A stretch of 46,936 nucleotides of DNA from IMG/VR virus record IMGVR_UViG_3300028173_000017. One strand, 5' to 3'. Shown here piece after piece: positions 24,549-25,001 of the stretch. Source of the DNA: a virus. A program made the position numbers and the translations under genes. How positions within the stretch are numbered: the stretch's first letter is position 1; each line of letters starts with the position of its first letter. The notes under the pieces were generated by a model. It worked only from the letters and a program-made list of their open reading frames with translations, did not search any database and was not told where the DNA came from.

Positions 24549-24957
24549 ACATCTTTCGCAAAATGATTATACTTATATTGAGGGCGATGAAACGTCGCTG
24601 AACATAGGAGAATTTGACAAACAATGTGCCCGAACTGGTTTCGATTGGGCGAATAATATTGAATGTGCAAGGCGAAGGGCAGCGCGGCTTCGTAAAAACG
24701 CTGAAATGATAATTGCTAACGATAACTCGGAGTACTCTTACGCACAAGCTGCATAATTGCGAGGTGGCCAACTACCTTGATACCCAAAATTGGCTGGATG
24801 TTTTACCGCATTGAGATAAAAATGGTTGCTAAATGGTTCCCTGGCTCGCCAGGTGGGTCCCAGTGTCTAGAACGGGACGGGTGTTTTATAGGCAGACTTG
24901 CCGGTTGAGAAGAACCGGATAACCTTGTGAATGACATGAAATTGAAGCGTTCAACAC

Positions 24958-24985
24958 CCCGGTTCGACTCCGGGCGGGTACACCA
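24958..24985 (+). other. orphan tRNA 3'-half-like element (T-arm CCCGG-TTCGACT-CCGGG, acceptor 3' strand CGGGTAC, discriminator A, CCA)
   Basis: no matching 5' acceptor strand within 100 nt; sits in a 450-bp non-coding stretch. Confidence 0.35.
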
Positions 24986-25001
24986 ACGAAGAGAGGATGA
25001 T

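What the first reader, a model, noticed from the sequence alone, without database searches (positions are those of the whole stretch)
24549..25001. 450-bp non-coding island containing an orphan tRNA 3' half
This is the longest ORF-free stretch in the window. It ends with a perfect T-arm (CCCGG-TTCGACT-CCGGG), a 7-nt acceptor 3' strand, discriminator A and CCA. No complementary 5' acceptor strand (needed: GT[AG][CT][CT][CT]G) lies within 100 nt. The only match (GTGCCCG at 24636) is about 340 nt upstream, which would imply a tRNA split by a large insertion or intron. It could also be a recombination or attachment-site remnant, a tRNA-like 3' end of a small RNA, or an origin region.
Basis: seen in the sequence. 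Interest (0 to 1): 0.5.

Follow-up and report, generated by a model that had tools for sequence, protein, structure and literature searches.

The report
Phage-encoded tmRNA (ssrA) gene
The "orphan tRNA half" is the 3' end of a complete, well-conserved transfer-messenger RNA gene carried by an uncultured marine large phage, a ribosome-rescue RNA already known from other large phages, so the finding is real but ordinary.

Summary
They are not orphan. ARAGORN calls it, with tag ANDNSEYSYAQAA*. Rfam RF00023 matches full length at 92 bits (threshold 47, E 1e-34). The "large insertion" is the mRNA-like and pseudoknot body.

The same gene, in the same gene neighbourhood, occurs in three other phage lineages from metagenomes (L001/L020, the TARA contig L006, L021). 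Their flanking gene is only 75-77% identical in DNA, yet the tmRNA is 93-98% identical. Ten base pairs changed on both sides, and G3.U70 is always kept.

The contig looks like a fragment of a huge phage, with tRNAs, a CCA-adding enzyme, RNA ligases and NAD salvage genes. No SmpB gene lies on it. Phage tmRNAs are documented in huge phages, mycobacteriophages, phage G and Melnitz, so this is a new member of a known kind.

One oddity remains. All 23 substitutions private to the window lineage lie in the tRNA-like domain and none in the body.

The parts
23916..24548 (+). Upstream neighbour: 210-aa protein. It has no Pfam hit itself; one distant homologue carries PF06941, a 5'-nucleotidase family. 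It bounds the intergenic region.
   Evidence: It is syntenic with the tmRNA in all four lineages.
24546..24573 (+). Sigma-70-like promoter candidate, TGAACA-16 nt-TATACT. It sits in a block (24563-24581) that is nearly invariant in four lineages.
   Evidence: Consensus scan; conservation in the alignment. Inferred, not shown to be active.
24583..24599 (+). 7-bp leader hairpin (GGCGAUG-AAA-CGUCGCU) in the predicted precursor, upstream of the mature 5' end.
   Evidence: It folds in three lineages with z-scores of -2.2 to -2.8. Stem positions differ between lineages but still pair.
24626..24985 (+). Complete one-piece tmRNA (ssrA) gene, 360 nt, with the CCA encoded.
   Evidence: ARAGORN. Rfam RF00023 at 92 bits against a threshold of 47, model positions 1-374 of 374.
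24626..24632 (+). Acceptor stem 5' strand, GUGCCCG (tmRNA positions 1-7). G3 forms the G.U pair.
24645..24672 (+). Helix 2 5' strand (positions 20-47: H2a 20-26, H2b 33-35, H2c 38-41, H2d 42-47).
   Evidence: Pair 20-329 changed on both sides.
24673..24703 (+). Pseudoknot 1 (stem 1 is 48-52 with 63-67; stem 2 is 55-59 with 74-78).
   Evidence: All 10 pairs form in all five sequences but never vary.
24715..24756 (+). Tag reading frame. Resume codon GCU (positions 90-92), 13 codons ANDNSEYSYAQAA, stop UAA (129-131).
   Evidence: ARAGORN. The same tag occurs in L001 and L006; L021 has ANDNSEHSYAQAA.
24750..24761 (+). Helix 5 candidate (125-128 with 133-136), with the stop codon in its tetraloop.
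   Evidence: It pairs in all sequences and is invariant. Inferred.
24766..24815 (+). Pseudoknot 2 candidate (141-146 with 165-170; 151-156 with 185-190).
   Evidence: There is one G.U to G-C change and no double change. Tentative.
24827..24878 (+). Pseudoknot 3 candidate (202-205 with 237-240; 232-236 with 249-253), with hairpin 215-219/224-228 in its first loop.
   Evidence: Pairs 205-237 and 232-253 changed on both sides in L021. An alternative partner for position 237, helix 183-187 with 237-241, is not excluded.
24891..24916 (+). Two adjacent hairpins in the pseudoknot 4 position (266-269 with 274-277; 278-281 with 288-291).
   Evidence: Pair 278-291 is G-C in three sequences and A-U in two.
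24923..24954 (+). Helix 2 3' strand (positions 298-329).
24958..24974 (+). T-arm: 5-bp stem (333-337 with 345-349) and 7-nt loop UUCGACU.
   Evidence: Three of the five pairs changed on both sides among lineages.
24975..24985 (+). Acceptor 3' strand CGGGUAC, discriminator A, CCA.
25002..25415 (+). Downstream neighbour: NUDIX hydrolase gene. Its ribosome-binding site starts 8 nt after the CCA and no terminator lies between, so co-transcription is possible.
   Evidence: Pfam PF00293; no terminator on the + strand.

Best explanation
Window 24626-24985 is a functional one-piece transfer-messenger RNA (ssrA) gene. It belongs to an uncultured marine phage with a large genome. Shown here: the RNA has every sequence and structure hallmark of tmRNA, and it is under strong purifying selection in four phage lineages. 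Inferred from the established trans-translation pathway: the gene is transcribed from its own sigma-70-like promoter as a precursor with a 5' leader hairpin. RNase P cuts the precursor at 24626. Host alanyl-tRNA synthetase charges it with alanine through G3.U70 and A73. It is delivered with SmpB and EF-Tu to ribosomes stalled on broken or stop-less mRNAs. SmpB must come from the host or from a part of the phage genome not on this contig. Translation then resumes on the GCU codon and appends (A)ANDNSEYSYAQAA. It stops at UAA, the ribosome is released, and the tagged fragment goes to host proteases. For the phage, the likely benefit is to keep ribosomes available while host mRNA is being degraded, or while host nucleases and toxins cleave RNA. 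That would fit the tRNA genes, CCA-adding enzyme, RNA ligases and kinase/phosphatase genes on the same contig.
For: ARAGORN predicts a tmRNA with a 13-residue tag. Rfam RF00023 matches end to end at 92 bits against a gathering score of 47, E 1.3e-34. The acceptor stem is 7 bp with G3.U70, followed by A73 and CCA. The T-arm is 5 bp with loop UUCGACU. The same gene in the same neighbourhood occurs in L001/L020, L006 (TARA) and L021, with Rfam scores of 108-114 bits. The flanking 210-aa gene is only 75-77% identical in DNA, and 55-61% at third codon positions. The tmRNAs of L001 and L006 nevertheless differ at only 6 of 360 positions. On the five-sequence alignment, 80 proposed pairs are 99.0% paired, against 34-41% when partners are slid. 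Ten pairs changed on both sides, against 1-2 in the slid controls. The window's exact sequence recurs in at least eight independent assemblies, so it is not an assembly artefact. The context is phage-like: the best protein matches are huge phages LR756500/501/503, relative L001 is an IMG/VR viral contig, and the contig carries tRNAs, RNA ligases, a CCA-adding enzyme family protein, NAD salvage genes, a lysozyme and homing endonucleases. The protein cluster of the neighbouring gene lists a 318-kb contig. Phage tmRNAs are documented in PMC7162821, PMC9004378, PMC12484599 and bioRxiv 10.1101/2021.07.26.453748.
Against: There is no expression, processing or charging data. No SmpB gene was found on the contig or the related loci, either by Pfam scans of about 50 ORFs or by a tblastn probe. 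The window's tRNA-like domain is less canonical than its relatives': U2-A71 instead of G-C, A19.C330 where relatives have A.G, and 92 bits against 108-114. Pseudoknot 1, helix 5 and most of the body are invariant, so their pairing has no covariation support. The pseudoknot 2-4 architecture is only partly resolved. The host is unknown. The tag ends in AQAA rather than the common ALAA, so whether host proteases recognise it is an assumption.
Confidence: 0.93

Rival explanations
1. It is an attachment-site or recombination remnant. Many temperate elements integrate into the 3' end of host ssrA or tRNA genes and carry a copy of that 3' end.
For: ssrA 3' ends are classic integration sites (general knowledge, also discussed in PMC9004378).
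Against: The gene is full length: the Rfam model is matched from position 1 to 374. No integrase was found among about 50 ORFs scanned. Neither 3'-end variant occurs verbatim in any of 185,579 species-representative genomes. The single hit, a Chitinophaga ssrA, matched only through the degenerate pattern.
Confidence: 0.01
2. It is a tRNA gene split by a large intron or insertion.
For: The two acceptor strands lie 342 nt apart.
Against: There is no D-arm or anticodon arm, and no tRNA or group I/II intron model reaches even E = 1 in this region. The intervening sequence holds pseudoknot 1, a resume codon, a tag frame and a stop, which fit the tmRNA model.
Confidence: 0.01
3. It is a bacterial ssrA on a mis-classified cellular or prophage-border contig, not a phage gene.
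For: tmRNA is universal in bacteria, the tag begins ANDN like proteobacterial tags (from memory), and the window is only a 46.9-kb contig.
Against: No bacterial housekeeping genes were found. The neighbours are phage-type auxiliary genes and homing endonucleases. The same flanking genes surround the tmRNA in four diverged lineages. The tag ending EYSYAQAA* is absent from all GTDB species representatives. The closest proteins are in 462-735-kb phage genomes, one of which also carries its own tmRNA.
Confidence: 0.03
4. In the window lineage specifically, the tmRNA is decaying or has been repurposed, for example as a decoy for SmpB or another factor, because its tRNA-like domain has diverged.
For: All 23 substitutions private to the window lineage lie in positions 1-32 and 321-355. 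The Rfam score is about 20 bits lower than in relatives. The window has U2-A71 and an A.C where relatives have A.G.
Against: Six of the changed pairs are compensated on both sides. G3.U70, A73, CCA, the T-loop and G12-G13 are untouched. The canonical fold is as stable as in relatives, -35.4 against -35.2 kcal/mol. The body has no private change, which argues against decay. This variant is the one recovered most often from metagenomes.
Confidence: 0.05

Closest known systems
Bacterial one-piece tmRNA (ssrA, Rfam RF00023), with E. coli SsrA as the reference
   Same: tRNA-like domain with G3.U70, A73 and CCA; T-loop UUCGA; long helix 2; pseudoknot 1 just before a GCN resume codon; a short tag frame ending in AA and a stop codon in a hairpin loop; length 360 nt. 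The sequence before the resume codon (AUAAUU|GCU) fits the Rfam consensus.
   Different: It is carried by a phage. The window's acceptor stem starts GUGCCCG rather than the usual GGGG. The tag is 13 residues and ends AQAA. The region where pseudoknot 4 normally sits looks like two plain hairpins. No SmpB gene lies nearby.
tmRNAs of huge and mega phages (Al-Shayeb et al. 2020, PMC7162821; Mar_Mega_1, bioRxiv 10.1101/2021.07.26.453748; phage G, PMC12484599)
   Same: Uncultured phage with a large genome carrying tRNAs and translation or RNA-maintenance genes plus a single tmRNA. The best protein matches of this contig are to LR756500/501/503 from the Al-Shayeb data set. LR756500 also has a tmRNA, at 95.5 bits.
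   Different: The LR756500 tmRNA is a different sequence: 411 nt, AT-rich, tag GNNAEMRMAA, and sited inside the tRNA array. The present one has a different tag and lies 19 kb from the three-tRNA cluster. There is no nucleotide match to any of 50,697 deposited phage records.
Mycobacteriophage cluster C tmRNAs (e.g. PMC1475703, PMC3029335) and the survey in PMC9004378 (402 of 18,146 phage genomes carry a tmRNA)
   Same: A complete tmRNA in a lytic-looking phage that also carries many tRNAs. The presumed role is to support the hijacked translation machinery.
   Different: Different hosts and environment, and no sequence relationship detected.
Two-piece (permuted) tmRNA of the marine phage Melnitz and of pelagiphages (PMC9004378)
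   Same: A marine phage tmRNA.
   Different: Melnitz has a circularly permuted two-piece tmRNA preceded by a glutamine riboswitch. Here the standard model wins clearly: the permuted model scores 39.6 bits, below its threshold of 47. No riboswitch was found.

Membership tests
tmRNA, one-piece (Rfam RF00023) | Covariance-model score above the curated gathering threshold, full length | tested here: met
   92 bits against 47, model positions 1-374 of 374, E 1.3e-34. Relatives score 107.8-113.8 bits.
tmRNA, one-piece (Rfam RF00023) | 7-bp acceptor stem with the G3.U70 alanine identity pair, discriminator A, 3' CCA | tested here: met
   G3.U354 is invariant in all five sequences, while pairs 2, 4 and 5 changed on both sides. 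A357 and CCA are encoded.
tmRNA, one-piece (Rfam RF00023) | T-arm with a 5-bp stem and 7-nt T-loop (UUCGA..); D-arm replaced by an unpaired loop holding GG; no anticodon arm | tested here: met
   Stem 333-337 with 345-349 and loop UUCGACU. G12 and G13 are invariant. No tRNA model hit in the region.
tmRNA, one-piece (Rfam RF00023) | Long helix 2 joining the tRNA-like domain to the body | tested here: met
   20 pairs (positions 20-47 with 298-329), 89-100% paired. Pair 20-329 changed on both sides. The constrained fold gives -35 kcal/mol in both variants.
tmRNA, one-piece (Rfam RF00023) | Pseudoknot 1 immediately upstream of the resume codon | tested here: inconclusive
   An H-type pseudoknot can be drawn (48-52 with 63-67; 55-59 with 74-78) and pairs in all sequences. 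All 10 pairs are invariant, so covariation neither supports nor opposes it.
tmRNA, one-piece (Rfam RF00023) | Internal frame without a start codon, beginning at a GCN resume codon, encoding a ~10-25-residue tag ending in hydrophobic residues/AA, followed by an in-frame stop | tested here: met
   GCU at positions 90-92, tag ANDNSEYSYAQAA, UAA at 129-131. The tag is conserved in four lineages with one Y-to-H change.
tmRNA, one-piece (Rfam RF00023) | Pseudoknots 2-4 downstream of the tag | tested here: inconclusive
   Candidate pseudoknots 2 and 3 and two hairpins pair in all sequences. Pairs 205-237, 232-253 and 278-291 changed on both sides. Alternative partners exist, and no pseudoknot could be drawn for the fourth.
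tmRNA, one-piece (Rfam RF00023) | Works with SmpB | not testable with these tools
   No SmpB on this 46.9-kb contig or the related loci. The rest of the genome and the host are not available.
tmRNA, one-piece (Rfam RF00023) | Alanylation and trans-translation activity | not testable with these tools
   Needs biochemistry or genetics.
Two-piece (permuted) tmRNA (Rfam RF04321) | Score above the gathering threshold with a permuted domain order | tested here: not met
   39.6 bits against 47 for 24571-24756 only. ARAGORN reports a standard, not a permuted, gene.
tRNA (Rfam RF00005), intact or intron-split | Cloverleaf with D-arm and anticodon arm | tested here: not met
   No tRNA hit in 24300-25200 even at E = 1. 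ARAGORN finds tRNAs only at 5194-5423.
Integrative-element attachment site in ssrA | Partial 3' copy of host ssrA next to an integrase | tested here: not met
   The gene is full length. No integrase domain was found among the scanned ORFs. No verbatim host match.

The most novel reading that the evidence does not exclude
In the window lineage the tRNA-like domain has been re-tailored as a unit while the rest of the RNA is frozen. The change comprises 23 private substitutions, including six pairs compensated on both sides, the unusual U2-A71 pair, and an altered base of helix 2. This could mark a specificity switch. The phage tmRNA might have adapted to a different host's AlaRS, SmpB or RNase P after a host jump, or to a phage-encoded partner. 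It might instead be escaping a host nuclease that targets the tRNA-like domain. Another possibility is a module exchange with another tmRNA. Any of these would make phage tmRNA a host-range or counter-defence determinant rather than a passive passenger.
Probability: 0.2. Interest if true: 0.5.

Novelty: new member of a known kind. Interest (0 to 1): 0.27.

Why it matters
It settles the annotation of the longest non-coding stretch of this contig and removes the idea of a split or orphan tRNA. It adds a well-supported, sequence-novel tmRNA family of four lineages to the known phage tmRNAs. The family is widespread in marine metagenomes and has no nucleotide match among deposited phages. It lies on the same 46.9-kb contig as tRNA and RNA-repair genes. 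The lineage-specific remodelling of the tRNA-like domain offers a small natural experiment on which parts of tmRNA must co-evolve with host factors. No open question changes.

Tried and rejected
1. Nucleotide searches of the region and of 24 kb around it against 50,697 phage records found no match.
2. The exact 3' end was absent from IMG/VR.
3. I tried to infer the host from the tag. A back-translated EYSYAQAA* pattern gave 0 hits in 185,579 species-representative genomes. In IMG/VR a shorter back-translated tag pattern (YSYAQAA*) found only L001's contig.
4. I tried to infer the host from the tRNA-like domain's 3' end. A degenerate pattern covering both variants hit only a Chitinophaga ssrA through a chimeric combination, which is uninformative.
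5. More distant homologues of the 210-aa neighbour (53% identity or less: L002-L004, L022, L023, L026, L027) have no tmRNA beside them. The gene is therefore confined to a tight clade.
6. No SmpB was found, either with tblastn using probe sequences recalled from memory or with Pfam scans.
7. The conserved promoter block is not repeated elsewhere in the window, so no phage promoter class could be defined.
8. Free-energy folding of the whole RNA is misleading because of the pseudoknots. For the window variant it prefers a non-tRNA pairing of the T-arm region, so I used constrained folds and pair counts instead.
9. I considered the antisense ORFs (105 and 69 aa) as the reason for the conservation. 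I rejected this because the changes in the tRNA-like domain alter their amino-acid sequence freely while RNA pairing is preserved.
10. I considered PurZ (Z-genome) for the neighbouring PurA-like gene. It is closer to true PurA.

Full report
**What is in the sequence.** CCCGG-TTCGACT-CCGGG lies at 24958-24974. CGGGTAC lies at 24975-24981, followed by A and then CCA, ending at 24985. The stretch 24549-25001 lies between the stop codon of a 210-aa gene and the ATG of a NUDIX gene. It is the longest real intergenic gap by a crude tiling of ORFs. Independent gene calls on identical contigs also leave it empty. Mechanical ORFs of 105, 69 and 43 aa do overlap it.

**Identification.** ARAGORN reports a tmRNA at 24626-24985 (+) with tag peptide ANDNSEYSYAQAA*. 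Rfam's tmRNA model RF00023 matches the same coordinates end to end, positions 1-374 of 374. The score is 92 bits against a gathering score of 47, with E = 1.3e-34. A permissive scan of 24300-25200 finds nothing else except a sub-threshold hit to the permuted-tmRNA model, 39.6 bits against 47. The 342 nt between the two acceptor strands hold the rest of that domain, helix 2 and the mRNA-like, pseudoknot-rich body.

**Anatomy.** tmRNA position p corresponds to window coordinate 24625+p.
- Acceptor stem: 1-7 with 350-356. The pairs are G1-C, U2-A, G3.U, C4-G, C5-G, C6-G and G7-C.
- Helix 2: four segments spanning 20-47 with 298-329.
- Pseudoknot 1: 48-52 with 63-67, and 55-59 with 74-78.
- Resume codon: GCU at 90-92, preceded by AUAAUU, which fits the Rfam consensus.
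- Tag frame: 90-128, with UAA at 129-131 in the loop of a small hairpin (125-128 with 133-136).
- Candidate pseudoknot 2: 141-146 with 165-170, and 151-156 with 185-190.
- Candidate pseudoknot 3: 202-205 with 237-240, and 232-236 with 249-253. Hairpin 215-219 with 224-228 sits in its first loop.
- Two hairpins: 266-277 and 278-291.
- T-arm: 333-337 with 345-349, with loop UUCGACU.
- 3' end: A357 and CCA.

Upstream lies a sigma-70-like promoter candidate, TGAACA-16 nt-TATACT, at 24546-24573. It sits within a block that is almost invariant in all relatives. A 7-bp leader hairpin at 24583-24599 folds in three lineages despite sequence differences. No terminator follows the gene. The ribosome-binding site of the NUDIX gene starts 8 nt after the CCA.

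**Relatives and selection.**
- A search with the 210-aa neighbour found IMG/VR contig L001. A pattern from the tmRNA body found TARA contig L006. Protein homologue look-ups found L020 (same lineage as L001) and L021.
- All carry a tmRNA in the same place, with Rfam scores of 107.8-113.8 bits. Three of the four lineages have the identical tag, and L021 has ANDNSEHSYAQAA.
- Among the window, L001 and L006, the flanking gene is 75-77% identical in DNA and 55-61% at third codon positions. The L001 and L006 tmRNAs nevertheless differ at only 6 of 360 positions.
- On the five-sequence alignment (A6), 80 proposed pairs are 99.0% paired, against 34-41% when partners are slid by 1-3 columns. Ten pairs changed on both sides, against 1-2 in the slid controls.
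- The ten pairs are three in the acceptor stem, three in the T-stem, one in helix 2a, two in the pseudoknot 3 region and one in hairpin 278-291. G3.U70 never varies.
- This is strong evidence for a structured RNA kept by selection. Pseudoknot 1, helix 5 and most of the body are invariant, so their pairing is compatible with the data but not independently supported.
- The window's exact tmRNA sequence is present in at least eight independent assemblies from ENA and Logan. One contig shows a single polymorphism at position 20. The sequence is therefore not an artefact.

**Whose gene is it?**
- The window is a whole 46,936-bp metagenomic contig. It has no nucleotide match in 50,697 deposited phage records.
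- Its 870-aa vault-like protein and its PurA-like protein match best the 462-735-kb "uncultured phage" genomes LR756500/501/503. These sizes, including the 735-kb genome, match the huge-phage study PMC7162821.
- The contig encodes three tRNAs, two RNA ligases, a CCA-adding/poly(A) polymerase family enzyme and an AAA_33/zeta-like kinase. It also encodes a metallophosphoesterase, NMN adenylyltransferase-NUDIX plus NAMPT, IMPDH/GMP reductase, a GH25 lysozyme and several HNH/NUMOD3 endonucleases.
- No integrase, SmpB or bacterial core gene was seen. The neighbour's protein cluster lists a 318-kb contig, which I could not retrieve.
- I scanned the whole of LR756500. It has its own tmRNA (Rfam 95.5 bits, tag GNNAEMRMAA) inside a 27-tRNA array, and no SmpB by my probes. 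That RNA is 411 nt, AT-rich and clearly a different sequence.
- The host is unknown. No species-representative genome has the tag ending or either 3'-end variant verbatim. Shine-Dalgarno-like motifs precede 23 of 33 genes.

**How it most likely works.**
- Shown: the gene has the tmRNA hallmarks and is under purifying selection.
- Inferred from the established trans-translation pathway: it is transcribed from its own promoter. RNase P cuts the 5' end after U-1. Host AlaRS charges it through G3.U70 and A73. SmpB and EF-Tu deliver it to ribosomes stalled on truncated mRNAs. Translation resumes at GCU, (A)ANDNSEYSYAQAA is added, termination occurs at UAA, and the product is degraded.
- SmpB must come from the host or from elsewhere in the phage genome. 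PMC7162821 reports both tmRNA and SmpB in some huge phages.
- The likely benefit is to keep ribosomes free during infection. In that period host mRNA is degraded, or RNA-cleaving toxins and anticodon nucleases act. The tRNA, CCA-adding and RNA-repair genes on the same contig fit this view, but it is an inference. Similar proposals for phage tmRNAs are made in PMC9004378 and PMC7162821.

**The one unexpected feature.**
- The window differs from the other lineages at 25-27 positions. Of these, 23 are private to the window lineage, and all 23 lie in the tRNA-like domain (positions 2-32 and 321-355). None lies in the 288-nt body.
- By contrast, L021 is the closest relative by the flanking protein, at 86% identity. 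Its roughly 25 changes are spread through the body and the T-stem.
- If changes fell uniformly over the RNA, the chance of all 23 landing in about 68 of 360 nt would be around 1e-16 (my arithmetic).
- Six of the changed pairs are compensated. The canonical fold is as stable as in relatives, -35.4 against -35.2 kcal/mol. All identity elements are kept.
- This looks like remodelling under constraint rather than decay. The cause cannot be decided here. Candidates are adaptation to other host factors, co-evolution with a phage partner, or exchange with another tmRNA.

**Comparison with what is known.** Complete tmRNA genes in phages are well documented.
- About 2.3% of 18,146 phage genomes carry one (PMC9004378).
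- Cluster C mycobacteriophages carry one (PMC1475703, PMC3029335).
- Phage G has one (PMC12484599).
- Huge phages have them (PMC7162821).
- The 656-kb marine megaphage Mar_Mega_1 has one (bioRxiv 10.1101/2021.07.26.453748).

The present gene passes every testable defining feature of one-piece tmRNA. It fails the tests for permuted tmRNA, for a tRNA and for an attachment site. It is a new member of a known kind, sequence-novel but mechanistically ordinary.

**Verdict.** Interest is low to moderate, mainly for the lineage-specific remodelling of the tRNA-like domain.

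Noticed in passing
window 5552-8164 (+): An 870-aa protein has Major Vault Protein shoulder, Vault_3 repeat and SPFH/Band 7 domains. It is 36-41% identical to ORFs in huge phages LR756500/501/503. A vault-like protein in phages is unusual.
   Followed up: partly
window 1362-2021, 14282-15187, 31837-33588, 34241-34978, 35706-36482; tRNAs at 5194-5423: These genes look like an RNA-repair and tRNA-maintenance set. They comprise two RNA ligases, a CCA-adding/poly(A) polymerase family enzyme, an AAA_33/zeta-like kinase, a metallophosphoesterase, and tRNA-Gly(GCC), tRNA-Arg(TCG) and tRNA-Thr(GGT).
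   Followed up: partly
window 15123-18778 and 22016-23032: Nucleotide and NAD metabolism genes are present: IMPDH/GMP reductase, NMN adenylyltransferase-NUDIX, NAMPT and a short (338-aa) adenylosuccinate synthetase. The last is much closer to true PurA (E 5e-54) than to the Z-genome enzyme PurZ (E 5e-20 to 4e-16). It keeps the GD-GKGK motif.
   Followed up: partly
window 24583-24599; L001 7295-7311; L006 1168-1184: A 7-bp hairpin lies in the predicted tmRNA leader. Its sequence differs between lineages but it still pairs. It may be a precursor stability or processing element.
   Followed up: partly
window 25480-26340, 27188-27748(-), 13513-14238(-), 40822-41436, 21123-22007, 4231-5208; L001 6605-7228(-); L021 1437-1595: There are many homing-endonuclease-like genes (HNH/NUMOD3, DUF7487/TnsA-like), and their presence varies around the tmRNA. 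L001 has an extra 207-aa minus-strand ORF between the 210-aa gene and the tmRNA promoter. L021 lacks the NUDIX and HNH genes.
   Followed up: no
L020 6094-7434 (= L001 3805-5145): The L001/L020 lineage has a 446-aa TROVE (Ro60-like) protein gene about 2 kb upstream of the tmRNA. It is absent at that place in the window. I did not look for a partner Y-RNA.
   Followed up: no
L030 1710-2122(-) and L029/L030 (LR756500 about 61-119 kb): The 462-kb phage LR756500 has its own tmRNA (Rfam 95.5 bits, tag GNNAEMRMAA) within a 27-tRNA array. The array includes a CTA-anticodon, suppressor-like tRNA at L030 17853-17921. No SmpB was found with tblastn probes.
   Followed up: partly
L018 position 159 (tmRNA position 20): One metagenomic contig of the window lineage has C instead of U at tmRNA position 20. 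This gives a C.A mismatch at pair 20-329. It is a population polymorphism at one of the tRNA-like domain positions that also distinguishes the lineages.
   Followed up: no
window 41447-41824 (+): A pyrimidine-dimer DNA glycosylase (denV-like, PF03013) is present. It is 60% identical to an ORF in LR756500.
   Followed up: no
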